A DNA stretch of 64,000 bases from Squalus acanthias (taxonomy: Eukaryota): assembly GCA_030390025.1 (NCBI GenBank), contig CM059444.1, positions 61,938,001-62,002,000 of the forward strand, in the 5' to 3' direction. The position numbers and the translations under genes were made by a program. A model generated the notes under the pieces. The model did no database searches, was not told the origin of the DNA, and saw nothing but the letters and a program-made list of their open reading frames with translations. Positions within the stretch are counted from its first letter, which is position 1; each line of letters starts with the position of its first letter. Below are positions 1-62,420 of the stretch, in pieces.

Positions 1-730
1 ATGGGATGCATCCTAGGATGCTGAGGGAATTCAGGGAGGAAATTGCGGAGGTACTGGACGTAATATTCCAATCCTCCTTAGATACGGGGGGTGGTGCCAG
101 AGGACTGGAGAATTGCAAATATTACACCATTGTTCAAAAAAGGGTGTAAAGATAAACCCAGCAACTACAGGCCAGTCAGTTTAACCTCGGTAGTGGAGAA
201 GCTTTTAGAAACAGTAATCAGGGACAAAATTAACAGTCACTTGGACAAGTGTGGATTAAATAAGGAAAGCCAGCACGGATTTGTTAAAGGCAAATCATGT
301 TTAACTAACTTGATTGAGTTCTTTGATGAGGTAACAGAGAGGGTTGATGAGGGTAATGCGGTTGATGTGGTGTACATGGATTTCCAAAAGGCGTTCGACA
401 AAGTGCCACACAATAGGCTTGCCAGCAAAGTTGAAGCCCATGGAATAAAAGGGACAGTGGCAGCATGGATACGAAATTGGCTAAGTGACAGGAAACAGAG
501 TAGTGGTGAACGGTTGTTTTTTGGACTGGAGGAAGGTATACAGTGGCATTCCCCAGGGGTTGGTTCTAGAACCACTGCTTTTCTTGATGTATATTAATGA
601 CTTGGACGTGGGTGTACAGGGCACAATTTCAAAATTTGCAGATGAAATAAAACTTGGAAGTATAGTGAACAGTGAGGAGGAGAGTGATAGTCTTCAGGAA
701 GGCATAGACAGGCTGGTGAAATGGGCGGAC
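1..730 (+). mobile_element. CR1 LINE ORF2 (reverse transcriptase) fragment, frameshifted
   Basis: ORFs 91-597 and 485-808 give VPEDWRIANITPLFKKG...NYRPVSLTS...QHGF...DFQKAFDKVPH and PQGLVL...FAD, the CR1 RT motifs, split across frames. Confidence 0.9.
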
Positions 731-1900: not shown

Positions 1901-2292
1901 CTAAGGTGCGATGCCTGGAACTGTCAAGGCTTCAGTTTTAAATTCCTTTGCGGATGATATTTCAGTGAAACCATTAATAACTGCAGTCTTTTCTTGGCGA
2001 ATCAAAACAGTTTCTTGATGCCAAAGACAACTTGAATATGTTTTTTTATATGTTCATTCCCGGGAGCGTCGGCCTAGATTTATTGCTCAAGTCTCTGGGT
2101 TTGGGGCTGAAACTCAGCACCTTCTGACTCGGAGGCGAGAGAGAGCGCTGTCCACTGAGCCAAGGCAGGCGTATTTCGATACTGTGAACCGCGCAGCTTG
2201 GAATTCAAGAGGAGAATAGAATGCCTAAAATAAGAGGACAAATGTGAGAAGTCGCACAACACCAGGTTATAGTCCAACAGCTTTATTTGAAA

Positions 2293-2329
2293 TCACAAGC
2301 TTTCGGAGCGCTGCTCCTTCGTCAGGTGA
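2293..2329 (-). ncRNA. Minimal type-I hammerhead ribozyme motif (putative)
   Basis: UCAC-CUGACGA-A-GGAGC(AGC)GCUCC-GAAA-GC-UU-GUGA: stem I UCAC/GUGA, CUGANGA core, 5-bp stem II, GAAA and a palindromic AGCU helix III. Confidence 0.65.
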
Positions 2330-2339
2330 AGTGAAGACT

Positions 2340-2376
2340 TCACCTGACGAAGGAGCAGCGCTCCGAAAGCTTGCGA
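2340..2376 (+). ncRNA. Minimal hammerhead motif, opposite arm (one stem-I mismatch)
   Basis: TCACCTGACGAAGGAGCAGCGCTCCGAAAGCTTGCGA. Confidence 0.55.
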
Positions 2377-2549
2377 TTTCAAATAAAGCTGTTGGACTAT
2401 AACCTGGTGTTGTGCGACTTCTCACATTTGTCCACCCCAGTCCAACACCGGCATCTCCGCAACATAAAATAAGAGGGGAGAAGCTGCAAATGTTGGAAAT
2501 ACACAAGGTCAGCCAGCATCTGGAGAGCGGAGAGACAGGGTAACCTTTC

Positions 2550-3715: not shown

Positions 3716-4070
3716 CCTTCAATGCTTATTTTACTGCACGAAACCCTTACTCCAGCCTTGGCTAGGAAGAGTTAAAACTGACCCACTGATGTGGGTTTCC
3801 CAGGCCTGGCTGTCTCGCACCATCAAGCTGTTGTGTGCTTAACGACCAGTCAGAAGATCAGGAGTCCAGATCCCCGGGTGGCCGCTTGCCCTCAGTAACT
3901 TGGCCTCAGCTGAGCGAGCTTTGTCACTTTGCCTCGTTGAGATGTGGCACCGCACAGAAGTGAGTGGTTTCATTTCGAGCGAAGGAAAAACAGCATCCAT
4001 CTCATTCGACTTTGATCGCACCTCTTGGGCCTGCTCTCAGAGGAGCACTCAATCATCAGTTACAGTGTCA

Positions 4071-4610
4071 GGCCGTGGCTTGGTGGGCAGCACTCTCGCC
4101 ACTGAGTCAGAAGGTTGTGGGTTCAAATCCCACTCCAGAGACTCGAGCACAAAATCCAGGCCGACACTCCCAGTGCAATACTGAGGGAGCGCCGCACTGT
4201 CGGAGGGGCAGTACTGAGGGAGTGCCGCACTGTCGGAGGGGCAGCACTGAGGGAGTGCTGCACTGTCGGAGGTGCCTTCTTTCGGATGAGACGTTAAACC
4301 GAGGCCCCATCTGCTCTCTCTCTCTCTCTCTCTCTCTCGAGTGGACGTAAAAGAACCCACAGCCACTATTTCAAAGAAGAGCAGGGGAGTTCTCCCCGGT
4401 GTCCTGGGCCCAATATTTATCCCTCAACCAACATCACTAAAACAGATTATCTGGTCATTATCACATTGCTGTTTGTGGGAGCTTGCTGTGCACAAATTGA
4501 CTGCCGCGTTTCCCTGCCTTACAACAGCGACAACACTTCAAAAAGTACTTCATTGGCTGTAAAGCGTCCTGAGGTGGTGAAAGGGGCTATATAAATGCAA
4601 GTTCTTTCTT
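4071..4610 (+). mobile_element. tRNA-derived Deu-domain SINE (SacSINE1-like), full length, with three 33-bp units
   Basis: tRNA-like head (TGGCTTGGTGG...GGTTCAAATCCC), a central GGAGGTGCC-TTTCGGATGAGACGTTAAACCGAGG...CCCCGGTGTCCTGG block resembling the Deu domain of AmnSINE1 as recalled, and an L2-like tail. Confidence 0.8.
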
Positions 4611-4788
4611 TGGTTCTTTATAAGTTGCACATTCTATGTCTGCTACTTGAAGATCATCAGGCCTGGGTTGGGCACGACCATTAGTTCTAATTCCGCTCGC
4701 GATGGATGTCCTTCAGCTCCCCTGAAGGCTCAGTTGGTAAATGCGCAGAGCTTTCAAAAGCAGGAAGGTCCCAAACAATCTCATTCTC

Positions 4789-4990
4789 AGGATGTGGGCA
4801 TCGCTGGCAAGGCCATCGTTTATTGCCCATCCCTAGTTGCCCAATGCGATTTGATGCAACTGATTCTCTTGCTAACCCACGTCAGAGGGCAGTTAAGAGT
4901 CAACCACGTTGGTGTGGGACTGGAGTCACATATAGGCCCAGACCGGGTACAGGACATTAGTGAACCAGTTGGGTTTTTACGACAATGCGA
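4789..4990 (-). mobile_element. SINE-like element carrying a CR1-Zenon-like LINE tail
   Basis: Shares its 3' end (GGGCAAxTAGGGATGGGCAATAAA...GCCCACATCC) with the LINE at 19600-20410. A second copy lies at 47220-47410. Confidence 0.55.
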
Positions 4991-5811
4991 CAGCTTCACG
5001 GTCACTTTTACTGATACCAGTGCCAGTTGCTGATCGCTGCTGGAAAGTGCGTGTGTACGGGTGCCCCTTGAGGACAGATTTGGGCTTGGCTGTCAGCCAC
5101 GTTTGCATTGCCTGCCAACACTGTAGGCTCTCTTCCCCATCCCCACTTCCCCCCACCACCTTCATGAGCAACAACAGTAGAGACAAGGATTCGGAAGGTA
5201 GCTGGTCCCTGTGGAATTAAGCCCCCGGCACAAGAATATGCCTTCAACAAAGAATGGGACAAACTAAAGACTGGAGGTCCTTCCCTCGCTGTGGACTCCA
5301 TCTAGCAGTTTGGCCGAGGACCGAGACTAGATTTCTGATCAAGCGTCCATGGGCTTTACAGCGACATAGAGGAGATCTTGTATTAAAATGGTTGAAAGTT
5401 GTTTCCATCATGCCCTTTTTGTTTTTAAATGCCTTCCATTCTTCATCTGAACCCTGACATGAAACTCTTGCCTTCCCTAATTAAGAAATAATGGATAGGT
5501 TCTTATATTTTACCGGGCATGTTAATCTGAAGGACAAGATACTGTTTCAATCAGCTGCCATCTTACTCGCTGGTGAAATATTGCCAGGCTCAATTATTAC
5601 TGTTCCATTAGCTGCTGCCACTGTGTTATAGACTCACTGCCTCATCCTTTACTCCTTTGCAACTGTCGAGAATCACTTCAAGACACAGTAAGTGGCAGCG
5701 AACTCTTTGTGCAGTGAAAGGGACTAACTCGTTGACAGCCCTTGCCATGATGGATTCCTCCATCAAGCTGGTCACTGCTCAACTGAGCTTAACTATTCAA
5801 GAGATAAAGAA

Positions 5812-6390
5812 AAGATCTTGCATTTCTACAGCACCTTGCACAACCTCAGGACGCCCCAAAGCGCTTTACAGCCAATTAAGTACTTTTAAAGCATAGCCAC
5901 TGTTGTAATGTAGGAAGCGCGGCAGTTTTTTGCGCACAGCAAGCTCCCACAAACAGCAATGTGATAATGACCAGATAATCTGTTTCAGTGATGTTGGTTG
6001 AGGCATAAACTTGAGCACAAAAATCCAGGCTGACACTCCCGGTGCAGTACTGCAGGAGCGCTGCACTGTCGGAGGTGCCGTCTTTCGGATAAGGCGTTAA
6101 ACCGAAACCCCCGTCTGCCCTCTCAGGTGGACGTAAAAGATCCCGCGGCCACTATTTTGAAGAAGAGCAGGGGAGTTCTCCCCGGTGTCCTGGGGCCAAC
6201 ACCCTAAACACGGATGATCTGGTCATTGTCACATTGCTGTTTGTGGGAGCTTGCTGTGCGCAAATCGGCTGCCGCTTTCCCACATTACAACAGTGAATAC
6301 ACTTAAAAAAAAAAGTACTTAATTGGCTGTAAAGCGCTTTGGGGCATCTGGTGGTCCAGAAAGGCGCTGTATAAAGTCTTTATTTTCTTT
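5812..6390. mobile_element. Two adjacent Deu-SINE fragments in inverted orientation
   Basis: 5812-6005 is the minus-strand 3' part. 6009-6390 is a plus-strand, 5'-truncated copy. Confidence 0.75.
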
Positions 6391-6659
6391 TTATACCTCC
6401 CTCCCACACTATCTGCTAATCTCTCACTTTAAGGAGCATTAAGTTCAACCTCCCATGACAAAAAAGTATCTCTCCATAATCCTCAGTCCCACTCCTTCAA
6501 TCATTTTCCTTTATTGTTAATTTTGCTCCCTTTACTCCTCGGGACTGAAGGTGACCTGTTTCACGGACAGCCGGGGGGGGGGTCACTGCAGCAGGGCTGA
6601 AAGCTGGCTCCTATCGTTCTCCTGTATTCTGTGCCACCCTGCCACCTTAACAACCCCCC

Positions 6660-7205
6660 TAGAGCACTGCGTGCCGTTCTGGTCACCACATTACAGGAAA
6701 GGATGTGATTGCACGAGTGAAAGGAGGAGATTTACGAGGATGTTGCCAAGACTGGAGAATTTTAGCTACGAGGAAAGATTGGAGAGGCTGGGGTTGTTTT
6801 CTTTGGAACAGAGGAGGCTGAGGGGAGACTTAATTGAGGTGTATAAAATTATGAGGGGCCTAGATAGAGTGGATAGGAAGGACCTATTTCCCTTTAGCAG
6901 AGAGGTCAATAACCAGGGGGCATAGATTTAAAGTAATTGGTGGTAGGATTAGAGGGGAGTTGAGGAGAACTTCTTTCACCCAGAGGGTGTTGGGGGTCTG
7001 GAACTCACTGCCTGAAAGGGTGGTAGAGGCAGAAACCCTCATCACATTTAAAAAGTACTTGGATATGCATCGGAAGTGCCGTAACCTTCAGGGCTTCGGA
7101 CCAAGAGCTGGTAAGTGGGATTGGGCTGATAGCTCTTTTTCGGCCGGCACAGACACGATGGGCCGAATGGCCTCCTTCTGTGCCGTAAATTTCTATGATT
7201 CTTTA
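6660..7205 (+). mobile_element. CR1 LINE 3' fragment
   Basis: LEHCVPFWSPHYRK...LGLFSLEQRRLRGDLIEVYKIM...FTQRVLGVWNSLP, ending TTCTATGATTCT. Confidence 0.88.
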
Positions 7206-7839
7206 TGAGCAACTGCCTCAGAGGCAGGCGGACGAGCAAGACCTGAAGCCAGAGCAGACAGTGACAGATAGACTGGGAATGGAATAAAAGGAACGCTATC
7301 TCCTTTTCACTCTCAACCCCACACCCAACCTCCGTCCAGAACGCCAATCAACATTTTCAAAAGAAAAGGAGCTTTGAAAGAACAGTCAGCGCTGACCGAC
7401 TCAGGCAAAGCTTCATATCACTGTTCAGCAAGGGCCACCGCAGTCATTTTAAATCTCATTTGCAACTAAACCCACTGACGGATTTCTGAGAGGCTTACTG
7501 TTGGCTTTTATTCATTTAAATCCATCCGAGGTATCAGAGACTTGATGTAAGCGAGAGAGGCATAATAAAAAAAAAAGCCCCAGAATGTAAACTTAAGTAA
7601 GTGAAAGAAGGGGTTTTGGTGTTACTTGCTACGAATCATTTTCAAATTCAATCTTTACGAGTGTATTGTAGCCAGACAAATTCATCTTTTATAGGAAAAT
7701 AAAGCTGGATTGTCACTGGGATTTCAGTGCAGTGTAATGGTGGGTGGGTGAGATTTCCATTCACTGTGGGACTCGGAACACCCAGTACGATCATCGATCT
7801 TGCCCTTCCAAGTATTGAGGTTTTCCTTTTTAAATCGTT

Positions 7840-8150
7840 CTTTGAGATGTGGGCGTTGCTGGCGAGGCCGGCATTTATTGCCCTCGAGAAGATTGGCGAT
7901 GGGGCTTCCTCTTGAACCACTGCAGTCCCTCGTGGTGAAGGTGCTGCCACAGTGACGTTCGGCAGGGAGTTCCAGGATTTTGACCCAGTGGCGATGAAGG
8001 AGCAGCCGATATATGTCCCAAGCTGGGATGGCGTGTGTGACTGGGAGCGAAACTTGGAGGCGATGCACCCGCTGCCCTTGTCCTTCTCGGCACTGGAGGC
8101 CGCGTTTTTTTTTGTGAGGTGCCGCTGAAGAAGCCTTGGCGACTTACTGT
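7840..8150 (-). mobile_element. CR1-Zenon-like LINE 3' fragment
   Basis: Reverse complement of the 3' end seen at 20090-20410. Confidence 0.7.
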
Positions 8151-8321
8151 GCAAGACCAGGGTGAAGCACTGGTGGTTGCAGTCATGGGAGCAATTTGAG
8201 GTGACGAATTAAAGAGTGTCACATAAGACCGAAGTGCTTAAGGACTCACTCAACTCTACCACAGCCATGGCTTCTGCCAGTGCATCCCCAATCCGATCCC
8301 ACCAACATCCTACCAATCCTA

Positions 8322-9445
8322 GCCAGAGACTTGAGCACAAAAACCTAGGCCGACACTCCAGTGCCAGTACCGAGGGAGTGCTGCACTGTCGGAGGGGCAG
8401 TACTGAGGGAGTGCAGCACTGTCGGAGGGGCAGCAGTACTGAGGGAGTGCAGCACTGTCGGAGGGGCGGTACTGAGGGAGCGCTGCACTGTCGGAGGGGC
8501 AGCAGTACTGAGGGAGCGCTGCACTGTCGGAGGGGCAGTACTGAGGGAGCGCTGCACTGTCGGAGGGGCAGTACTGAGGGAGCGCTGCACTGTCGGAGGG
8601 GCAGTACTGAGGGAGCGCTGCACTGTCGGAGGGGCAGTACTGAGGGAGCGCTGCACTGTCGGAGATCCAGTACTGAGGGAGCGCTGCACTGTCGGAGATC
8701 CAGTACTGAGGGAGCGCTGCACTGTCGGAGGGGCAGTACTGAGGGAGCGCTGCACTGTCGGAGATCCAGTACTGAGGGAGTGCTGCACTGTCGGAGATCC
8801 AGTACTGAGGGAGCGCTGCACTGTCGGAGATCCAGTACTGAGGGAGCGCTGCACTGTTGGAGGGGCAGTACTGAGGGAGTGCTGCACTGTCGGAGGGGCA
8901 GTACTGAGGGAGCGCTGCACTGTCGGAGGGGCAGTACTGAGGGAGCGCTGCACTGTCGGAGGGGCAGTACTGAGGGAGCGCTGCACTGTCGGAGATCCAG
9001 TACTGAGGGAGCGCTGCACTGTCGGAGATCCAGTACTGAGGGAGCGCTGCACTGTCGGAGGGGCAGTACTGAGGGAGCGCTGCACTGTCGGAGGGGTAGC
9101 AGTGCTGAGGGAGTGCTGCACTGTCAGAGGTGCTGTTTTTCAGATGAGACGTTAAACCGCGGCCCCGTCAGGCGGACGTAAAGATCCCATGGCGCTATTT
9201 GAAGAAGCACAGACAGGAGTTCTCCCCGGTGTCCAGGCCAATATTTATCCCTCAACCAACATCACTAAAACAGATTATCTGGTCATCACATTGCTGTTTG
9301 TGGGAGCTTGCTGTGCGCAAATTGGCTGCCGCGTTTCCAATATTACAACAGTGACTACACTTCAAAAAAGTACTTCATCGCTGTAAAGCGCTTTGGGACG
9401 TCCTGAGGTCGTGAAAGGCGCTATAGAAATGCAAGTTCGTTCTAT
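8322..9445 (+). mobile_element. Deu-domain SINE with internal minisatellite expansion
   Basis: SINE body on both sides of the 33-bp array, ending in the L2-like tail at about 9445. Confidence 0.85.
8366..9130 (+). repeat. 33-bp tandem array, 23 units (GTACTGAGGGAGCGCTGCACTGTCGGAGGGGCA)
   Basis: Directly visible. The ORF 8216-9181 translation contains 23 STEGALHCRRG-type repeats. Confidence 0.95.
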
Positions 9446-10240: not shown

Positions 10241-10370
10241 AATGTATCGCGGCAGGGGTGGGGAAACATAAGCCAAAAAACAATTCTCTCAGAGCAAGAC
10301 CTGACGCAAAGTCTCCGCGCAACACTGACTGAGCTGAAGATCCAGCGCGTTCCCACGTGCTCACACTCAC

Positions 10371-10514
10371 CAAAACTTTATGCTCGCCCGTCAGGTTGGG
10401 CGGTTCACACAGGAGCTGGGTCTCCGAGACAGTCAGTACGCAAGGGTTCTCCCCTATCAGCACCGTGTAGTTCAGCTTGACGTTGCCTGGTGCGTTGGGA
10501 ATCAAGTTCCTCCC
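10371..10514 (-). CDS. PLXNA1: Plexin-A1-like exon (last in window), membrane-proximal IPT domain
   Basis: 144 nt, ctgcag|GGG...TTG|gtgagt. [48 protein letters not shown]. The transmembrane exon expected next was not found in 1-10370. Confidence 0.93.
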
Positions 10515-22945: not shown

Positions 22946-23994
22946 ACACTGCAGGATAGAGGAGAGGGAAATCCATCAACATTTATGCTCCTGATCACAA
23001 TCCATGGACTTTCTGCCGAAGAGTCCACAGGCACAGACGTCAGGCGAAGACTGGATCAGCCTCTCCCTTCTCCCGTCGAGGTTTACATACTCGCACAGGA
23101 TTACTTCAGCAGAGGGGGAAGCCTGTGCCAGCTTGTAGTGGTTGGCAGCACCCGCGGTCCTGAGTCGGCGGACTGAGGGCCCGAGCCTGCGTATCCGGGG
23201 GCTCTGGTGCGGTATCCAAGCTGACGCTGCAGCCAAGCGCTGGGAGAAGTTTGGCAATTTCAAACGAGACATAAAATTAGTAACAGTTCATCTTCCCTAT
23301 TTGAGTGGACATTAAAAAAAAAGGCTACATGGGACAACAGCAGATTCAGTGTAAGAGAAGGGCGGAATAATACAGCACAGAAGGAGGCCACTCAGCCCAT
23401 CGTGCCCTGTGCCGGCTCTTTGAAAGAGCTCTCCAATTAGTCCCACTTCACCCCTGCTCTTTCCTCACAGCCCTACAAATTTCTCAAGTATTTATCCAAA
23501 TCCCTTTTGAAAGTTACCATTGAATCTGCTTCCACCGTCCTTCAGGCAGCGCAATCCAATTCATAACTTGGAAGGAGAAAAAATTGCTGGGATATGGGGA
23601 AAGAGCCGGGGAGTGGGAATAACTGGATTGCTCTTCGAAAGAGCCAGCGTAGACTCGATGGGCCGAATGGCCTCATTCTGTGCTATTCTATGATTCTATG
23701 ATGATAACTCGATATGTAAAAATAATTCTCCTCCTCTCCCCTCTGGTTCTTGTGCCAATCATCTTAAATCTGGTTACCGACCCTCCTGCCAGTGGAAACA
23801 GTTTCTCCTTATTTACTCTATTAAAACCCTCCTCATAATTTTCAGTCGAAGGGCTTTCTTTACCCAAATCTACGCTGTGGCCTATGGAACTACATCGGGG
23901 CAAGAATCGGCCCCTTGAGCAGAGAAAGGGAGCGTGAAGCCACGGCTGGTGCCCACCAACAAAAAAAAAATCCTTGATCTCCAAGAAGGGTTAC

Positions 23995-27535: not shown

Positions 27536-27714
27536 GAGAGGGGCAATCTTTTGATTGCTACCCAAACGATTCATACTCAAAGTCCAGGCATCCTCCCCCA
27601 CCCCTCCTAGTTTTAAATGCATTTCCCTTCCAAGGTTTCAACCTTCCCAATGTTGTACATGTACCCATTTTTTCCACGACCCCCACCACCCCACCTCTTT
27701 TTAAAAATTGGGTT

Positions 27715-29340
27715 GGGGAATTCTGTGCGCCGCAAGATGAGGGATGTTAGTGCTGGGGAATGGAAACATCCCCATTATAGCCTCTCACTGTTGGCATTAA
27801 TATTCCAGGGCAGGTACAGCACGGGTTAGATACAGAGTAAAGCTCCCTCTACACTGTCCCATCAAACACTCCCAGGGCAGGTACAGCACGGGTTAGATAC
27901 AGAGTAAAGCTCCCTCTACACTGTCCCATCAAACACTCCCAGGGCAGGTACAGCACGGGTTAGATACAGAGTAAAGCTCCCTCTACACGGTCCCATCAAA
28001 CACTCCCAGGGCAGGTACTGCACGGGTTAGATACAGAGTAAAGCTCCCTCTACACTGTCCCATTAAACACTCCCAGGGCAGGTACAGCACGGGTTAGATA
28101 CAGAGTAAAGCTCCCTCTACACTGTCCCATCAAACACTCCCAGGGCAGCTACAGCACGGGTTAGATACAGAGTAAAGCTCCCTCTACACTGTCCCATTAA
28201 ACACTCCCAGGGCAGGTACAGCACGGGGTTAGATACAGAGTAAAGCTCCCTCTACACTGTCCCATCAAACACTCCCAGGGCAGGTACAGCACGGGGTTAG
28301 ATACAGAGTAAAGCTCCCTCTACACTGTCCCAGTAAACACTCACAGGGCAGGTACAGCACGGGTTAGATACAGAGTAAAGCTCCCTCTACACTGTCCCAT
28401 CAAACACTCCCAGGGCAGGCACAGCACGGGTTAGATACAGAGTAAAGCTCCCTCTACACTGTCCCATCAAACACTCCCAGAGCAGCTACAGCACGGGTTA
28501 GATACAGAGTAAAGCTCCCTCTACACTGTCCCATCAAACACTCCCAGGGCAGGCACAGCACGGGTTAGATACAGAGTAAAGCTCCCTCTACACTGTCCCA
28601 TCAAACACTCCCAGGGCAGGTACAGCACGAGTTAGATACAGAGTAAAGCTCCCTCTACACTGTCCCATCAAACACTCCCAGGGCAGGTACAGCACGGGTT
28701 AGATACAGAGTAAAGCTCCCTCTACACTGTCCCATCAAACACTCCCAGAGCAGCTACAGCACGGGTTAGATACAGAGTAAAGCTCCCTCTACACTGTCCC
28801 ATCAAACACTCCCAGAGCAGCTACAGCACGGGTTAGATACAGAGTAAAGCTCCCTCTACACTGTCCCATCAAACACTGCCAGAGCAGCTACAGCACGGGT
28901 TAGATACAGAGTAAAGCTCCCTCTACACTGTCCCATCAAACACTCCCAGGGCAGGTACAGCACGGGTTAGATACAGAGTAAAGCTCCCTCTACACTGTCC
29001 CATCAAACACTCCCAGGGCAGGTACAGCACGGGTTAGATACAGAGTAAAGCTCACTCTACACTGACAACGACGTATCTGAATCTCAAGCTCGGAGGCGTG
29101 TTACTTATACAACCAAAGAGATATTTTCTGATTTCCCACAACGGGCATGCTTGACCTCCGAGCGAGATTGGCAAACGGTGCTGAATTAGGGGTAGCTTTG
29201 CATTGGGTCATATTTGGTTGGAACTGGATTGACCCCGTCTAAAGTTACTTCATGTGGGATCCCTTCATCTTCAGCTGACAGAATCGACTTTCGTCGCCGT
29301 CAGTCTGGGCTGGATTCGAGTGCAGCTTCCAGAGGATAAT
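27715..29340 (-). mobile_element. Putative LF-SINE-related element hosting the 67-bp array
   Basis: Minus strand reads TCGAATCCAGCCCAG...CGAAAGTCG...TCCAGTTCC...CTAATTCAGCACC...CCCGTGCTGTACCTG, colinear with the LF-SINE consensus as recalled. Confidence 0.5.
27804..29064. repeat. 67-bp tandem satellite, about 19 units
   Basis: CCCAGGGCAGGTACAGCACGGGTTAGATACAGAGTAAAGCTCCCTCTACACTGTCCCATCAAACACT, period 67 (27871, 27938...), with no spacers. Confidence 0.95.
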
Positions 29341-32974: not shown

Positions 32975-34108
32975 AAAAGAAAGAAAAGACTTGCATTTAT
33001 ATAGCGTCTTTCATGACCTCAGGATGTCCCAAAGCGCTTTACAGCCAATGAAGTACTTTTTGAAGTGTAGTCACTGTTGTAATGTAGGAAACGCGGCAGC
33101 CAATTTGCGCACAGCAAGCTCCCACAAACAGCAATGTGAGAATGACCGGATCATCTGTTTTCGTGATGTTGATCAAGGGATAAATATTGGCCCCAGGACA
33201 CCGGGGTGAACTCGCCTGATCTTCTTCGAAATAGTGCTGGGGGATCTTTTACGTCCACCTGAGAGAGCAGTTTAACGTCTCATCCAAAAGACGGCACCCT
33301 CCAACAGTGCAGCTCTCCCTCAGCACTGCCCCTCCAACAGTGCAGCGCTCCCTCAGCACTGCCCCTCCGACAGTGCAGCACTCCCTCAGCACTGCCCCTC
33401 CAACAGTGCAGCGCTCCCTCAGCACTGCCCCTCCGACAGTGCAGCGCTCCCTCAGCACTGCCCCTCCGACAGTGCAGCGCTCACTCAGCACTGCCCCTCC
33501 GACAGTGCAGCTCTCCCTCAGCACTGCCCCTCCGACAGTGCAGCGCTCACTCAGCACTGCCCCTCCAACAGTGCAGCGCTCCCTCAGCACTGCCCCTCCG
33601 ACAGTGCAGCGCTCCCTCAGCACTGCCCCTCCGACAGTGCAGCACTCCCTCAGTACTGCCCCCGACAGTGCAGCGCTCCCTCAGCACTGCCCCTCCGACA
33701 GTGCAGCACTCCCTCAGTACTGCCCCTCCGACAGTGCGTCGCTCCCTCAGCACTGCCCCTCCGACAGTGCAGCGCTCCCTCAGTACTGCCCCTCCGACAG
33801 TGCAGCGCTCCCTCAGCACTGCCCCTCCGACAGTGCAGCGCTCCCTCAGCACTGCCCCTCCGACAGTGCAGCGCTCCCTCAGTACTGCCCCTCCGACAGT
33901 GCAGCGCTCCCTCAGTACTGCCCCTCCGACAGTGCAGCACTCCCTCAGTACTGCCCCTCCGACAGTGCAGCACTCCCTCAGTACTGCCCCTCCGACAGTG
34001 CAGCGCTCCCTCAGTACTGCCCCTCCGACAGTGCAGCGCTCCCTCAGTACTGCCCCTCCGACAGTGCAGCTCTCCCTCAGCACTGCCCTGGAGTGTCAGC
34101 CTGGATTT
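32975..34108 (-). mobile_element. Deu-domain SINE with 33-bp array (about 24 units, 33290-34085)
   Basis: Reverse-complement SINE tail and body followed by (CAGCACTGCCCCTCCGACAGTGCAGCGCTCCCT)n. Confidence 0.9.
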
Positions 34109-34539
34109 TCTGCTGAAGCAGACCAGGTCTCTTGTTTCTGATGGCCTCTCTCTAATGAGTTTCAAACGTCTGGGTGGCAAAAAATTCCACTAATGTCCAT
34201 GAACTTGGGATATTTCATCAGAAAAATATCTAAAGGTAAACATATTGGAGAGCACAACTTGACCGGTTTTGGAACTTTGAAAGGATTCACGTCATCCTTT
34301 CGCCACTTCTTTCTTGTACGAGATACGATCTGTGGAACTGCCCATGGCTGACCACTTTACATACTCGAGCTTCACCTTGCAGTAGCTTCTCTCACATAGT
34401 CCTCACATCATGCATCACGCCACCGCTGAGAAAGCAGGCAAGTGCTCTGGCCAGTGCTCCGCAGGAAGTGACCGCGGATGGGGAAGAGTAGCTCGATGGC
34501 AAACAGCAATCGATCTTATTCTTTTTTTCCTCCGCTCTC

Positions 34540-49277: not shown

Positions 49278-49812
49278 CCATGATGTGGAGATGCCGGTGT
49301 TGGACTGGGGTGGACAAATGTGAGAAGTCGCACAACACCAGGTTATAGTCCAACAGTTTTATTTGACATTACAGGAAACTTTCGTTTATCCGGCACCGAC
49401 GGGACCGGCGTGGTGCCGGTTGATCGAAAGTGCCGGATGACAGAGAGGTATACTTACCAAGGTACGAGAGCCCCGTACACGGCCACAGGCTGAACAATTG
49501 GGACCCGGAGAGGGAAGGTAAACGAGACTCCGGCTTTTTCCTCCGTGGCGGCGACAGGTCGGAGTCGGAAGAACGTTGACCCCCCTTTCGTGGGGGCGAA
49601 AGGTCAGAATCGGGGTCTTGTCTGGATAATAAAACTTACCTGATTTTTGCCGGTTAAGCGAGAATTCCGGATATTAGGGTGCCGGATAAACGAAAGTTTC
49701 CTGTACAAGCTTTTGGAGCGCTGCTCCTTCATCAGGTGAAGGAGCAGCGCTCCGAAAGCTTGTGATTTCAAATAAAACTGTTGGACTATAACCTGGTGTT
49801 GTGCGACTTCTC
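49278..49812 (-). mobile_element. Fold-back Penelope-like terminal element, copy 3
   Basis: Same arms and tail as copy 1 in reverse orientation. 11-bp TSD GGATTTATTAG (49267-49277, 49813-49823). Confidence 0.8.
49372..49703. mobile_element. Tc1/mariner-superfamily (pogo/Tigger-like) MITE
   Basis: Perfect 26-bp TIRs CAGGAAACTTTCGTTTATCCGGCACC, with TA on both sides (49370-71, 49704-05). Confidence 0.85.
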
Positions 49813-51169
49813 GGATTTATTAGTGACTGTCTTATATTTATGGCCCCTAGTTTCAGTTTCCCCCACAAGTGGAAACATCTTCTCTACGTCTACCCTATCG
49901 AAACTCTTTCATAATCTTGATGACCTCTATCGGGTCACCCCTCAGCCTTCTCTTTTCTAGAGAAAAGAGCCCCAGCCCGTTCAATGCTTCCTGATAGGTA
50001 TAACTCTGGGGCTTTGATTCAATGTCAGCTCAGACGGATGGGATCACAGCCTCTTTCCCTGTTTGGGCCTCACACTGAATGAGCTGGGGCACTCTCAATT
50101 CAGTCCCTAAGGGGCACGGGGCTGGGAGCAGAGCCCCCCAATCAGCACTAAACTGTCCATCTCAGTCCGACAGGCCACAGGATAGCTGTTACACGAAGTG
50201 GAAAAACATCACATTGATGCAAAAAAAGAAAAAGGGTGTTCTTCTGATATGGGGGCTGAGGGCCATTGTTTGGCCTTTACTCTTCTTCTACCTGACCTGG
50301 TCGTGTTCGATGCTGACACTGGGTGCCTGAAATGGTAACGTATATTCCGTGCCCCAGCACTAAAACCCTCCTCCTGCTGAGCACAGGACCACTGCAGTGG
50401 GACACACACGCCTCGGAAATCTGCTCCACAGCAGCACCTAGTGGCCAGATCCTGCAACTACAGCGTGACTGCTGACATAGCGAGTTGCAATGGTAATCAT
50501 AAACCGTAAGGCGTGGCCAAATATCATGACAACAGGAAGTAATGTTTGTGGACAGGAAGCAAACACTTCCCACCGGATTTGTAAATAATGTGTGGGTAAG
50601 ATACAGTTTGTCTTATGTGCTGAGGCTGCTCTTAATCTGCTCGATGTGGGGCAGAATTTAGAGTACCAGCTACAATACTGGAGTAACAAAGCCGCTCTCC
50701 AGTGTTAACGGGAGGGCCCAGCAGAAATGATTAGATGTAACCCGTGCTCTTCATCCTCAAGAGAGGCATCTCACAGGATGATGCTGGAGTATATGATACT
50801 TAACAGTACAGAGACCATGGGGCGGAATCACTATGAGGTACCCAAGAGTGTTCAAGGGGGTGGGGAGGGGGTCTTGCTTATCCAAGGAAAAGCAAAACAA
50901 AAAGAGAGAATGGGTGGCAAACTGGGTCAACCCGAGCAGGGATCCACTCAAACTGGTGGCAGCTAAGCCTTCTTCTTCCAATGGCTGAAAAGGTTCAATA
51001 TGAAGCAAATTTCAGACCATCTCAACCTGCTCCCGCTCAGACATCCCACTGGGCAGGAAACAGGAAAACGTCCCACTGGTGCAGTCGGGGCACGGATTTC
51101 TGGGGCTGGGAATGAAGACATAATACAGAAGTAGAGCAGAGAAACCGTTACCTCCCATGGTCTGAGGTT

Positions 51170-51487: not shown

Positions 51488-51610
51488 TCTTACACTGGCT
51501 GGCTGAATTGGAACCTCGCTTTGATTGTAAGCAACCCGCATGCAATGAGCTTGGGGTGGTCGCAACCCAGACCAGGATGAGCACAGGTCCATAGCACAAA
51601 AACTGCCACA

Positions 51611-52995
51611 AGTACTGAGGGAGCGCCGCACTGTCGGAAGGGCAGTACTGAGGGAGTGCCGCACTGTCGGGGGGGGCAGTACTGAGGGAGCGCTGCACTG
51701 TCGGAGGGGCAGTACTGAGGGAGCGCTGCACTGTCGGAGGGGCAGTACTGAGGGAGTGCCGCACTGTCGGGGGGGCAGTACTGAGGGAGTGCCGCACTGT
51801 CAGAGGGGCAGTACTGAGGGAGTGCCGCACTGTCGGGGGGGCAGTACTGAGGGAGTGCCGCACTGTCGGGGGGCAGTACTGAGGGAGTGCCGCACTGTCG
51901 GAGGGGCAGTACTGAGGGAGCGCCGCACTGTCGGAGGGGCAGTACTGAGGGAGCGCCGCACTGTCGGAGGGGCAGTACTGAGGGAGCGCCGACTGTCGGA
52001 GGGACAGTACTGAGGGAGCGCCGACTGTCGGAGGGGCAGTACTGAGGGAGCGCTGCACTGTCGGGGGGGCAGTACTGAGGGAGCGCCGCACTGTCGGAGG
52101 GGCAGTACTGAGGGAGTGCTGCACTGTCGGAGGGGCAGTACTGAGGGAGCGCCGACTGTCGGAGGGGTAGTACTGAGGGAGTGCCGACTGTCAGAGGGGC
52201 AGTACTGAGGGAGTGCCGCACTGTCGGAGGGGTAGTACTGAGGGAGTGCCGCACTGTCGGAGGGGTAGTACTGAGGGAGTGCCGCAATGTCGGAAGGGCA
52301 GTACTGAGGGAGTGCTGCACTGTCGGAGGAACAGTACTGAGGGAGCGCTGCACTGTCAGAGGGGCAGTACTGAGGGAGTGCTGCACTGTCGGAGGGGCAG
52401 TACTGAGGGAGTGCTGCACTGTCGGAGGGGCAGTACTGAGGGAGTGCTGCACTGTCGGAGGAACAGTACTGAGGGAGCGCCGACTGTCGGAGGGACAGTA
52501 CTGAGGGAGCGCCGCACTGTCGGAGGGGCAGTACTGAGGGAGTGCTGCACTGTCGGAGGAACAGTACTGAGGGAGCGCCGACTGTCGGAGGGGCAGTACT
52601 GAGGGAGTGTTGCACTGTCGGAGGGGCAGTACTGAGGGAGTGCTACACTGTCGGAGGTGCCATTTTTGGGATGAGACGTTAAACCGAGGCCCCGTCTGCT
52701 CTCTCAGGTGGACATAAAAGATCCCACTACACTATTTCAAAGAATAGCAGGGGACTTCTCCCCGGTGTCCTGGGCCAATATTTATCCCTCAACCAACATC
52801 ACTAGAACAGATTATCTGGTCATTTATCTCACTGCTGTTTGTGGGAGCTTGCTGTGTGCAATTTGTCTGCCACATTTCTCACATTACAACAGTGACTACA
52901 CTTCAAAAAGTACTTCAGTGGCTGTAAAGCGCTTTGGAGCGTCCTGAGGTTGTGAAAGGCGCTATATAAATAAATCCAAGTCTCTTTCTTTCTTT
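51611..52995 (+). mobile_element. 5'-truncated Deu-domain SINE starting with a 33-bp array (about 32 units, 51612-52655)
   Basis: Array runs directly into GGAGGTGCC...GATGAGACGTTAAACCGAGG and the SINE tail. Confidence 0.9.
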
Positions 52996-53240: not shown

Positions 53241-53946
53241 CTGGAAGAGAAAGACAGACAGGCTCAGTAAGGGAGGGGAGCTTTAGCAACGTGAGGCATT
53301 CATTGAGGGCAGCAAGTCACTTTTCCTATCCTGATTCGCACCAACAAACACTAATGCACCAAAGAAACAAGAGTAACTGCCATTCACCTGACTGCTGTTT
53401 GTGGCTGCCACATTTTGCAAAGAGCCAGCACAGGCACGATGGGCCGAATGGCCTCCTTCTGTGCTGTACGATTCTATGATTTGCCTACATAACACGAATC
53501 ACTGCACTTCATAGAATCTGACAGCACAGAAGGAGGCCCCGTCTGCTCTCTCAGGTGCCTGTGTCGGCAAAATAATCTTCAAAGTTATTCACTGTATGAG
53601 ATAAACTGTGGTTAAAAAAAGAGAGATTTGATAAGATGCCATACAAATTTCTTTCTTTCTTTCCTTCCCTCAGGGCTCTGCAAATAGTAAGGCTCACTTT
53701 GCACATGGTCAGGTCATTAAAGGGGGTGCCTTTACCCTTGGAATTAAGGGCATTGCTTTGTGCTACATTCTACAGCAGTGGATACAGTGATGTTCTCAGG
53801 AAGCTCAACAATCCCTGCCAATACATTGATTATGCGTGATGTCACTATGATGGACGGCGAGGCGAGGCTCCATCGTTACCACCCAACCCGGAGGTCTGCG
53901 GGTGGGTGATTCTCTTTCCAAAAACAGCACTGACGCCCACTTTAAA

Positions 53947-54165
53947 TGAGAAGTCGCACAACACCAGGTTATAGTCCAACAGCTTTATTTGAAATCACAA
54001 GCTTTCGGAGCGCTGCTCCTTCGTCAGGTGAAGTGAAGACTGTACCTGACGAAGGAGCAGCAGCTCCGAAAGCTTGTGATTTCAAATAAAGCTGTTGGAC
54101 TATAACCTGGTGTTGTGCGACTTCTCACTTTTGTCCACCCCAGTCCAACACTGGCATCTCTGCAT
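53947..54165 (+). mobile_element. Fold-back Penelope-like terminal element, copy 2
   Basis: Inverted arms of about 83 nt (53947-54029, 54044-54127) plus tail. 13-bp TSD CACTTTAAATGAG (53938-53950, 54166-54178). Confidence 0.8.
53995..54031 (-). ncRNA. Minimal type-I hammerhead ribozyme motif (putative)
   Basis: Identical to the motif at 2293-2329. Confidence 0.65.
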
Positions 54166-54892
54166 CACTTTAAATGAGTTTAAGCTTCTTTTTCTGATTG
54201 ATATTTCCTGTCCAACTCTGCCTTCAAAATCTCACTCATGTAATACAAACCGCCCAATTTGGGATGAACACCACCACCACACTGTGGTGCCCAGTCCAGC
54301 ACACAGCCAGACCACGTGCCCACCCACTGATGGGCATTGTAAGATGCTGCCAGCTGGTTCGCCCAGCACCCCAGTGCTACTGGGGCCACCTGCCTTTTGT
54401 ACTGCTGGATTAGATCTGCCCTTTGCTTCACACACACACACACATTGTCCCTTGGGTTTTGGAAGGCGGCAGACAGGCTCCCCAGAAGAGCTGTGTGTTT
54501 ACAGGAGGGCAATCTCGTGTACAAGTCTGGATGGTTTGAGGAATAGCACACTGCCCCTGCTCTCCGGAAGTCAACCGAAATCCCACCAACATGCCACGAG
54601 ATCCACCAATCTTGTTGGAAGTCACTGACCATTTGGGGGGGGTTTTTTGCCCCCAATTTCATCCTTTCTCCTGCTGAAGGTGCGGACTCCTTGCTTGGGT
54701 GCATTCCCCAGCAACCCTCCCAACGAGTCAAGCCTTCGTACACGAGCCTAGACAGTGGCCGTCAGCAGGGCACCTGGCTGTGGAGGGCATCAGCTCAGCC
54801 CCAGTACTGCCCCCATCTGACGTCAGCACGTCGACCAGGAGTACGAACCCCGATTGGTTTTCCCATCCTCAGCCCAGAGGCACGGACACCAG

Positions 54893-61904: not shown

Positions 61905-62420
61905 ATCAAAAATCTAGGCTGACACTCGCAGTGCAGTGCTGAGGGAGTGCTGCACTGTCGGAGGTGCCGTCTTTCGGATGAGACGTTAAACCGTCTGCTC
62001 TCTCAGGTGGATGTAAAAGATCCCATGGCACTATTTCGAAGTCACAAGCTTTCGGAGCTATCGAAAGCTTGTGATTTCAAATAAAACTGTTGGACTATAA
62101 CCTGGTGTTGTGCGACCTCTCAATTTTGTCCACCCCAGTCCAACACCGGCATCTCCGCATCATGACTATTTCGAAGAGCAGAGGAGTTCTCCCCGGTGTC
62201 CTGGGGCCAATATTTATCCCTCAAACAACATCACTAAAAACAGATTATCTGGTCATTATCACATTGCTGTTTGTGGGAGCTTGCTGTGCACAAATTGGCT
62301 GCTGCGTTTCCTACATTACAACAGTAACTACACTTCAAAAAAAAAGTACTTCATTGGCTGTCGAGGCTTTGGGACGTCCGGTGGTCGTGAAAGGCGCTGT
62401 AGAAATGCAAGTCTTTCTTT
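61905..62420 (+). mobile_element. Deu-domain SINE interrupted by fold-back element copy 4
   Basis: SINE body is split at ACTATTTCGAAG. Confidence 0.85.
62042..62164 (+). mobile_element. Fold-back Penelope-like terminal element, copy 4 (short arm)
   Basis: 13-nt inverted arm TCACAAGCTTTCG/CGAAAGCTTGTGA plus the family 3' end. 12-bp TSD ACTATTTCGAAG (62030-62041, 62165-62176). Confidence 0.8.

What the first reader, a model, noticed from the sequence alone, without database searches (positions are those of the whole stretch)
2293..2376. Back-to-back minimal hammerhead ribozymes inside a plexin intron, probably self-silenced by their own hairpin
Seen: the minus strand (sense for the plexin pre-mRNA) reads UCAC CUGACGA A GGAGC-AGC-GCUCC GAAA GC UU GUGA, and an identical motif occurs at 53995-54031. 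The plus strand carries the mirror copy. Established: the hammerhead core is CUGANGA/GAAA/NUH. Penelope-type minimal hammerheads have a vestigial palindromic helix III (here AGCU) and cleave as dimers, and an extra A after A9 is a known natural variant. Inference: cleavage would be after CUU. In the pre-mRNA the antisense arm is transcribed first, so a 97-bp duplex should mask the ribozyme and instead provide an ADAR or Dicer substrate. Copy 3 has GAAA changed to AAAA and should be inactive.
Basis: partly seen in the sequence, partly recalled or inferred. Interest (0 to 1): 0.72.

Follow-up and report, generated by a model that had tools for sequence, protein, structure and literature searches.

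The report
Head-to-head Penelope retrotransposon stubs, shark intron
The two hammerhead-ribozyme motifs are real, but they are the ends of one of thousands of short mirror-image insertions of a Penelope-type jumping gene, and in this plexin intron the motif is predicted to be locked in a hairpin and likely does nothing special for the gene.

Summary
Observation confirmed. The motifs are the centre of a ~229-bp insertion (2236-2464) with a 12-bp target-site duplication: two 5'-truncated pseudo-LTR ends of a Neptune-type Penelope-like retrotransposon (PLE) joined head-to-head, one carrying the ~30-nt PLE 'tail'. The same end flanks an 889-aa RT/GIY-YIG ORF elsewhere. The genome holds 14,566 exact copies of the 35-nt core and at least 2,823 back-to-back pairs. 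Variation across copies matches a minimal PLE hammerhead (free N7 and loop II, compensatory helix I change), so the ribozyme is under selection in the element, not at this locus. The site lies in a ~22-kb plexin-A1-like intron. The hairpin is predicted to mask the motif by ~66 kcal/mol, and the two motifs sit on opposite strands, so they cannot dimerise in one RNA. Cleavage, editing and dicing were not testable. Extra: 117 of 119 pairs carry exactly one tail; 0 of 120 arms start at the cleavage site; starts peak about 7-fold at an initiator-like A ~30 nt behind a TATA box, mostly after a G, likely a copied cap. The scan noted such palindromes before on other DNA (e1-7858806, e1-9995956). Known kind; low-to-moderate interest.

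The parts
2226..2237 (+). Left copy of 12-bp target-site duplication; its last 2 nt overlap the end of the left arm
2236..2337 (-). Tail-less, 5'-truncated pLTR arm, sense for the plexin pre-mRNA
2293..2329 (-). Minimal type-I hammerhead motif: helix I UCAC/GUGA, C3 at 2325, extra A 2318, helix II 2317-2305, GAAA-GC-UU; predicted cut between 2297 and 2296
2333..2337 (.). Head-to-head junction (4-nt hairpin loop 2333-2336). A2337 is the preferred start base of arms genome-wide; G2336 is shared with the left arm and may be a copied cap (inferred)
2337..2433 (+). Tail-bearing pLTR arm; antisense to plexin and transcribed first in the pre-mRNA
2340..2376 (+). Second hammerhead motif (C3 at 2344); C2374 breaks the middle helix I pair
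2434..2464 (+). ~31-nt PLE 'tail'; in full-length copies it ends at the ORF start codon
2465..2476 (+). Right copy of the 12-bp target-site duplication
53947..54165 (.). Second head-to-head insertion of the same family, 13-bp duplication at 53938-53950 / 54166-54178; arms differ in helix I and loop II
49284..49813 (.). Third insertion: tailed minus-strand arm with G12-to-A change, interrupted by a ~330-nt TA-flanked element with terminal inverted repeats; plus arm lacks the CUGA core
62032..62159 (+). Fourth insertion, truncated 3' of the CUGANGA core, with tail and 12-bp duplication
10371..10513 (-). Plexin-A exon (TIG/IPT domain) upstream of the host intron; donor GT at 10370

Best explanation
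This is a short insertion of a high-copy Neptune-type Penelope-like retrotransposon, made of two truncated hammerhead-bearing ends joined head-to-head between a 12-bp target-site duplication, and its ribozyme motif is predicted to be locked in a 97-bp hairpin in the plexin pre-mRNA and likely inert there. Shown: anatomy, copy number, link to an RT/GIY-YIG ORF, family-level hammerhead conservation, intron position. Inferred mechanism: the element's endonuclease cuts both target strands about 12-13 nt apart; each 3' end primes a cDNA on uncleaved element RNA, one starting at the far end of the tail and one about 30 nt nearer; the two cDNA ends are joined by microhomology. The shortest arms likely run to the 5' end of a capped transcript that starts about 7 nt before C3, which is why two complete motifs end up back to back. 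The ribozyme likely works only in the element's own tandem transcripts, as a dimer through AGCU and perhaps with help from the element's protein. In the intron the hairpin is likely an ADAR substrate (untested).
For: 12-bp duplication and one-sided tail at the locus. 14,566 exact 35-nt cores, 66,287 exact 33-nt anchors, 2,823 back-to-back core pairs; reversed-pattern controls 0. 30 of 30 loci fetched for the family's GIY-YIG end carry the arm in sense about 250-320 nt behind it. L192 is a complete unit: inverted arm, pLTR with hammerhead and tail ending at the ATG, 889-aa ORF (RVT_1 E=2e-8, YIDD, CX4CxxC, YIG), second pLTR, 12-bp duplication; close relatives in other sharks at 79-91%. In 80 parsed arms from the anchor-selected and random set, N7 takes all four bases, loop II is 3-8 nt, H17 is only U or C, helix I pair 2.3/1.3 is C-G 38, U-A 36, U-G 5, mismatch 1. 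A second PLE family in this genome has the same geometry with swapped pairs, AGCU becoming ACGU. 117 of 119 head-to-head pairs carry exactly one tail, none two; duplications mostly 12-13 bp. 0 of 120 arms start within 2 nt of the cleavage site. Hairpin -216 kcal/mol against -150 with helices I and II forced. PMC11167929: a lizard PLE protein cuts and extends both strands, starts RT at two sites that bound the tail, uses uncleaved RNA, and its hammerhead needs the protein.
Against: No cleavage, editing or expression data for this locus or family. Rfam has no hit. Both arms of an insertion nearly always share subfamily letters (2.6% discordance against 28% for random pairs, 1.3% background), which fits fold-back copying of one cDNA as well as two primings on RNA of one source. 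The pair counts reflect a few inherited changes, not independent events, and those rows were picked for an intact core and helix II. The empty site was not seen.
Confidence: 0.88

Rival explanations
1. Same element, but the mirror arm is made by fold-back (self-priming) of one cDNA or antisense template rather than by priming at both target nicks.
For: Arms of one insertion are nearly identical at subfamily sites. Many junctions show short palindromic microhomology. PMC3846280 proposes self-priming on an antisense template for such junctions.
Against: The tail-less arm often reaches further 5' than the tailed arm, including here (to -5 against 0), which simple fold-back of the tailed cDNA cannot supply. 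Loop II length differs between arms in 11 of 72 pairs. One pair has G-ACTTCAC starts on both arms (L005). Both-strand cutting and extension was seen in vitro (PMC11167929).
Confidence: 0.3
2. The 225-bp palindrome is itself a non-autonomous unit (retrozyme- or MITE-like) that is copied whole.
For: One junction recurs (12 of 42 short pairs, all from loci picked for likeness to the query); 40 of 40 scored top hits have the same overall form.
Against: 27 different junctions among 42 short pairs; a continuum of arm lengths up to ORF-bearing copies; only 6 of 39 pairs in the anchor-selected and random set are back-to-back with both motifs whole; short arms lack the upstream TATA box; not tandem as retrozymes are; 12-13-bp duplications and a one-sided tail do not fit a MITE.
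Confidence: 0.07
3. The intronic copy has been co-opted to regulate plexin RNA, as a conditional ribozyme (unmasked by editing or helicases) or a small-RNA source, like the conserved intronic hammerheads of amniotes.
For: The plexin-sense motif is intact, with a second intact sense copy 51.7 kb upstream in the same pre-mRNA. Conserved intronic hammerheads exist (PMC6155905).
Against: Perfect duplication and 97-98% identity to dispersed copies point to a young insertion. Four insertions in 64 kb is of the order of the genome average (24 arms in 760 kb of position-picked tiles). 69 of 80 sampled arms keep an intact core, so intactness is the default. Helix III cannot form in a monomer; the partner copy is masked too.
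Confidence: 0.04

Closest known systems
Minimal hammerheads (min-HHR) in pLTRs of metazoan Penelope-like elements (Cervera and de la Pena 2014, PMC4209133)
   Same: Core, extra base between 9 and 10.1, G10.1-C11.1, palindromic 15.2-16.2, short helix I, thousands of dispersed truncated copies; that paper already notes pairs on opposite strands 100-700 bp apart.
   Different: This shark family was not found in the text read or the searched supplement; motifs here can lie under 20 nt apart; helix II is 5 bp; copy number (>14,000 exact) exceeds the 4,000-9,000 quoted for coelacanth and frog.
Insertion units of EN+ PLEs with inverted 5'-truncated copy, tail and target-site duplication (PMC3846280, PMC8557442)
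   Same: Inverted truncated copy at the 5' end, 30-40-nt tail on one end, short duplication, TATA plus TCACT initiator-like motif in the pLTR, CX2-5CxxC linker typical of Neptune/Nematis.
   Different: Here both halves are cut down to ~100-nt stubs with no ORF; duplications are 12-13 bp rather than 8-10 bp.
PAc Poseidon element of Anolis (Frangieh et al. 2024, PMC11167929)
   Same: Two discrete 3' ends bounding the tail; AT-rich targets; no sign that cleaved RNA is the template.
   Different: Different clade; here hammerhead and tail lie wholly upstream of the start codon, with the tail ending at the ATG, whereas in PAc they overlap the ORF.
Non-LTR retrozymes (bioRxiv 10.64898/2026.07.22.740005; PMC7229834)
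   Same: Non-coding, PLE-derived, type-I hammerhead.
   Different: Retrozymes are head-to-tail tandem units that can form dimers and circles; this is head-to-head with motifs on opposite strands.
Conserved intronic hammerheads of amniotes, e.g. RECK (PMC6155905)
   Same: Hammerhead motif in an intron, sense to the host gene.
   Different: Those are few, old and conserved; this is one of many thousand young copies, minimal in form and masked.

Membership tests
Minimal type-I PLE hammerhead (PMC4209133) | Core CUGANGA ... GAAA ... UH | tested here: met
   N7 free and H17 only U/C in 80 arms
Minimal type-I PLE hammerhead (PMC4209133) | Extra base between 9 and 10.1; G10.1-C11.1 pair; helix II | tested here: met
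   A in 80 of 80; G-C 79 and G-U 1 of 80; each helix II pair kept in 79-80 of 80
Minimal type-I PLE hammerhead (PMC4209133) | Palindromic 15.2-16.2 in place of helix III | tested here: met
   AGCU here; ACGU in the second family; 57 of 59 distinct motifs palindromic
Minimal type-I PLE hammerhead (PMC4209133) | Short helix I | tested here: met
   3-4 bp with C-G/U-A/U-G change; the plus-strand copy at this locus has one mismatch
Minimal type-I PLE hammerhead (PMC4209133) | Located in a pLTR of a PLE | tested here: met
   L192; 30 of 30 GIY-YIG loci
Minimal type-I PLE hammerhead (PMC4209133) | Self-cleavage as a dimer | not testable with these tools
   No assay; no genomic footprint of cleaved templates (0 of 120)
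Rfam hammerhead families | Score against the Rfam covariance models | tested here: not met
   No hammerhead match at E<=1 in the window
EN+ Penelope-like elements, Neptune type | Single ORF with RT and C-terminal GIY-YIG between pLTRs | tested here: met
   At family level, L192; the window copy itself has no ORF. Pfam GIY-YIG did not score on the L192 protein; the motif was read by eye and homologs carry PF01541
EN+ Penelope-like elements, Neptune type | CX2-5CxxC linker before the endonuclease (Neptune/Nematis, absent in Penelope/Poseidon; PMC8557442) | tested here: met
   CX4CxxC at residue 750
EN+ Penelope-like elements, Neptune type | Inverted 5'-truncated copy, 30-40-nt tail on one end, target-site duplication | tested here: met
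EN+ Penelope-like elements, Neptune type | Placement in the Neptune clade by RT phylogeny | not tested
   No named reference set was available; Neptune versus Nematis rests on motif and host only
Non-LTR retrozymes | Head-to-tail tandem units each with a hammerhead | tested here: not met
   Head-to-head, opposite strands
Domesticated intronic hammerheads (RECK type) | Conservation at an orthologous intron site across species | tested here: inconclusive
   No contig of 4 runs bridged the site; young-insertion features argue against
MITEs | Symmetric terminal inverted repeats with a short fixed duplication and a DNA transposase partner | tested here: not met
   Asymmetric tail, 12-13-bp duplications, RT partner

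The most novel reading that the evidence does not exclude
The junctions of these palindromes record the PLE insertion reaction in vivo: short capped pLTR transcripts, starting 7 nt before the hammerhead core and still uncleaved, are copied from both target nicks at two fixed start sites, the cap is copied as an extra G, and the two cDNAs are joined. That puts the hammerhead at the very 5' end of the element's mRNA, where cleavage would remove the cap 36 nt in, making it a switch on the element's own expression rather than a step in making the template. Tens of thousands of copies make this readable from the genome alone.
Probability: 0.5. Interest if true: 0.5.

Novelty: new member of a known kind. 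Interest (0 to 1): 0.27.

Why it matters
For the plexin gene it most likely does not matter. As a family, it is a large natural data set on two open points of PLE biology: how the inverted copy and tail arise, and what the hammerhead is for. The one-tail rule, the lack of starts at the cleavage site and the start peak with an extra G give testable predictions, and near-intact ORFs offer a Neptune-type system to set beside the Poseidon one studied in vitro. Thousands of ready-made ~100-bp hairpins, many in introns, would also be a major source of double-stranded RNA in shark cells.

Tried and rejected
Rfam scan: no hammerhead hit. Pfam GIY-YIG search of the genome gave one hit, a decayed unrelated PLE with a separate palindrome inserted behind it; searches with it led to a second PLE family with 1004-aa frames that does not carry this pLTR as its own end. 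Hypothesis that cleaved RNA is inserted (pile-up at the base after CUU): rejected, 0 of 120 starts at positions 34-38; very short palindromes centre mostly on AGCT microhomologies. Test of two different templates per insertion: inconclusive. Sequencing runs: no RNA holder listed; only contigs could be laid, depth came from family copies, no contig bridged the site and A>G was not in excess, so nothing on expression, editing, starts or the empty site. Monomer folds were not better than shuffles (z -1.2 to 0.1), as expected for a motif this small. Cofolding two motifs gave a loop II duplex, not the AGCU dimer, so energy models do not support or exclude the dimer. Upstream extents beyond about -40 are limited by the reference copies and were not used. 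Lunse et al. 2017 is not held and is cited only through PMC6765202. A look-up of earlier findings by sequence gave nothing.

Full report
1. Observation. The minus strand at 2329-2293 reads UCAC CUGACGA A GGAGC AGC GCUCC GAAA GC UU GUGA and the same motif lies at 54031-53995. A core pattern matches 4 times in the window, with 0.01 expected from 100 shuffles. The arms 2236-2332 and 2337-2433 pair over 97 bp around a 4-nt loop with one DNA mismatch, 2295/2374. That mismatch breaks the middle helix I pair of the plus-strand motif and is a G-U pair in the plexin-sense RNA. Copy 3 (C3 at 49735, minus) has AAAA for GAAA. Rfam found no hammerhead at E<=1.

2. Host gene. A minus-strand exon at 10513-10371 encodes a TIG/IPT stretch (Pfam E=6e-8) and ends at a GT donor. 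The next plexin exon found lies about 12 kb left of the window (L032, acceptor AG at 7988-7987) and matches Plexin-A1 over 27 of 27 residues, Plexin-A3 slightly less. The site is therefore in a ~22-kb intron of a plexin-A1-like gene. The host is a shark by inference from the element's closest protein relatives.

3. What the thing is. The palindrome sits between two copies of a 12-mer (2226-2237, 2465-2476), and only the right arm carries a further ~31 nt. The window holds three more insertions (53947, 49284, 62032). The genome holds 14,566 exact copies of the 35-nt core, 66,287 of a 33-nt downstream anchor and 2,823 back-to-back core pairs within a tight pattern; reversed-pattern controls were 0. 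Position-picked 10-kb tiles gave 24 arms in 760 kb, roughly 100,000 arms if extrapolated. One core locus (L122) had a GIY-YIG-type frame ending about 270 nt before the arm. All 30 loci fetched with that protein (of 150 scored) carry the arm in sense behind it. L192 is a whole unit: inverted arm, pLTR with hammerhead and tail ending at the ATG, an 889-aa ORF (RVT_1 E=2e-8; YIDD; CX4CxxC; YIG), a second pLTR 93-94% like the window arm, and a 12-bp duplication. Relatives are 91%, 84% and 79% identical in three named sharks and about 44-46% in turtles. The CX2-5CxxC linker marks Neptune/Nematis rather than Penelope/Poseidon (PMC8557442, passages); no tree was made.

4. Is the hammerhead real? Of 122 distinct arms in the anchor-selected and random set, 82 extend across the motif and 80 parsed (the parser allowed 4 changes in 15 letters). 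N7 takes all four bases (48/16/13/3), H17 is U 60 or C 20, loop II has 16 forms of 3-8 nt, each helix II pair is kept in 79-80 of 80 (A-U to G-U in 15), and helix I pair 2.3/1.3 is C-G 38, U-A 36, U-G 5, mismatch 1; 69 of 80 keep the whole core. A second PLE family in this genome, 32% identical in protein, has the same geometry with other letters, ACGU for AGCU. On 33 chosen rows of both families 97% of cells pair, 0 of 500 shuffles reach it and slid controls give 25-45%; those rows were picked for an intact core and helix II and are related, so this counts a few events. These features are those listed for PLE min-HHRs in PMC4209133 (parts 1-2 of 4 read), which also reports no monomer activity, low dimer activity, and pairs on opposite strands 100-700 bp apart. 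That N7 is free and that U17 cleaves more slowly than C17 is recalled, not from a call. The selection seen is on source elements; it says nothing about this locus.

5. Behaviour in the intron. The plexin transcript meets the antisense arm first. The full hairpin folds at -216 kcal/mol against -150 with helices I and II enforced; the outer helix II pair has probability near 1e-19. The two motifs are on opposite strands, so one RNA never holds both; the nearest same-strand motif is 51.7 kb upstream and equally masked. This holds for any head-to-head pair on either strand, so it is geometry, not design. ADAR is plausible: lizard Penelope and palindromic frog repeats are heavily edited and elephant shark shows hyper-editing (PMC5625713, passages). 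It could not be tested: only contigs were available.

6. How the palindrome arises. Among 119 head-to-head pairs within 1.5 kb, 117 have exactly one tail, 2 none, none two (36, 2, 0 of 38 in the anchor-selected and random set); duplications were found in 102 of 119, mode 12-13 bp; tailed arms end at positions 121-124 (plus ATCA-type letters), tail-less arms at 87-98. PMC11167929 (parts 1-2 of 4) shows a PLE protein cutting and extending both strands, starting RT at two sites that bound the tail, using uncleaved RNA, with a protein-assisted hammerhead. Priming at both nicks explains one tail per pair; this step is my inference. Fold-back, proposed in PMC3846280 (passages), is not excluded: arms of one insertion differ at 2.6% of non-CpG subfamily sites against 28% for random pairs and 1.3% background, though loop II length differs in 11 of 72 pairs. 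Junctions vary: 27 kinds in 42 short pairs, one kind 12 times among loci picked for likeness to the query, so the palindrome is mostly built anew at insertion.

7. Where arms start. None of 120 arms starts at positions 34-38 around the cleavage site; 30 start at -2 to +7 against 9 and 12 in the neighbouring 10-nt bins (p=2e-4, arms of a pair not independent). Genome-wide, motifs that begin at the A of position 0 after a purine number 3,216, against 473 beginning at -1 and 492 at +2 (position +1 was not counted). The preceding base is G in 82 of the first 100 listed at position 0 and 51 of 100 at -1 (counted by eye). Part of this G is supplied by the partner arm, as at this locus, but several junctions show a G the partner does not supply (L002, L005, L014, L128, L305). 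This A lies in TCACTT, 30 nt behind the start of TATATA in 4 of 6 long copies examined (37 nt to C3; 39 and 40 in the other two). TATA plus TCACT in a pLTR is described for a rotifer PLE (PMC3846280), while Drosophila Penelope has a TATA-less internal promoter (PMC2377424, passages). An extra G from the cap marks full-length L1 insertions (PMC11702581, passage). I infer a capped transcript starting at this A; no RNA data confirm it. Searches listed no paper that evidently reports this for PLEs, and search 67 none on shark PLE hammerheads; the library lacks most subscription papers and Repbase, one supplement file of PMC4209133 was not searched, and bioRxiv supplements were not seen.

8. Comparison and verdict. 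It works like, and is a member of, the truncated inverted insertion units of endonuclease-positive PLEs with a minimal hammerhead. It is not a retrozyme (not tandem; bioRxiv 10.64898/2026.07.22.740005, part 1 and passages), not a MITE, and shows no sign of being a domesticated intronic hammerhead (PMC6155905, passages). Two earlier notes of this scan reached the same reading on other DNA; they are not independent evidence, and I had fixed my reading before seeing them. Interest 0.27; the junction record of section 7 is the part worth following.

Noticed in passing
L142:3265-6276 (-), L143, L144 and others: A second high-copy PLE family with open frames up to 1004 aa and its own minimal hammerhead of the same geometry (ACGU palindrome), 32% identical in protein to the first family.
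   Followed up: partly
L192:2817-2946: The tail ends exactly at the ORF start codon, so hammerhead and both RT start sites lie in the 5' UTR; an AATAAA lies 8 nt after the predicted cut.
   Followed up: partly
window 49371-49706: A ~330-nt element with ~27-bp terminal inverted repeats and a TA duplication has inserted into copy 3, just after its helix I strand; looks like a Tc1/mariner-type miniature element.
   Followed up: no
L051:1471-2466 (-): Decayed, low-copy third PLE lineage (about 30-40% identical to the 1004-aa family) with a palindrome of the first family inserted behind its ORF.
   Followed up: partly
window 53440-53548 and 23382-23676: Other hairpins formed by inverted pairs of common repeats; weak Rfam miRNA-model matches far below cut-off.
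   Followed up: no
window 8371-9225, 33165-34221, 51545-52526; 27671-29178: 33-bp tandem arrays inside a common dispersed repeat, and a 67-bp tandem array.
   Followed up: no
family-wide: U4 is changed to C in 6 of 80 arms, recurring in several loci, suggesting a sub-lineage that spread with a core change.
   Followed up: no
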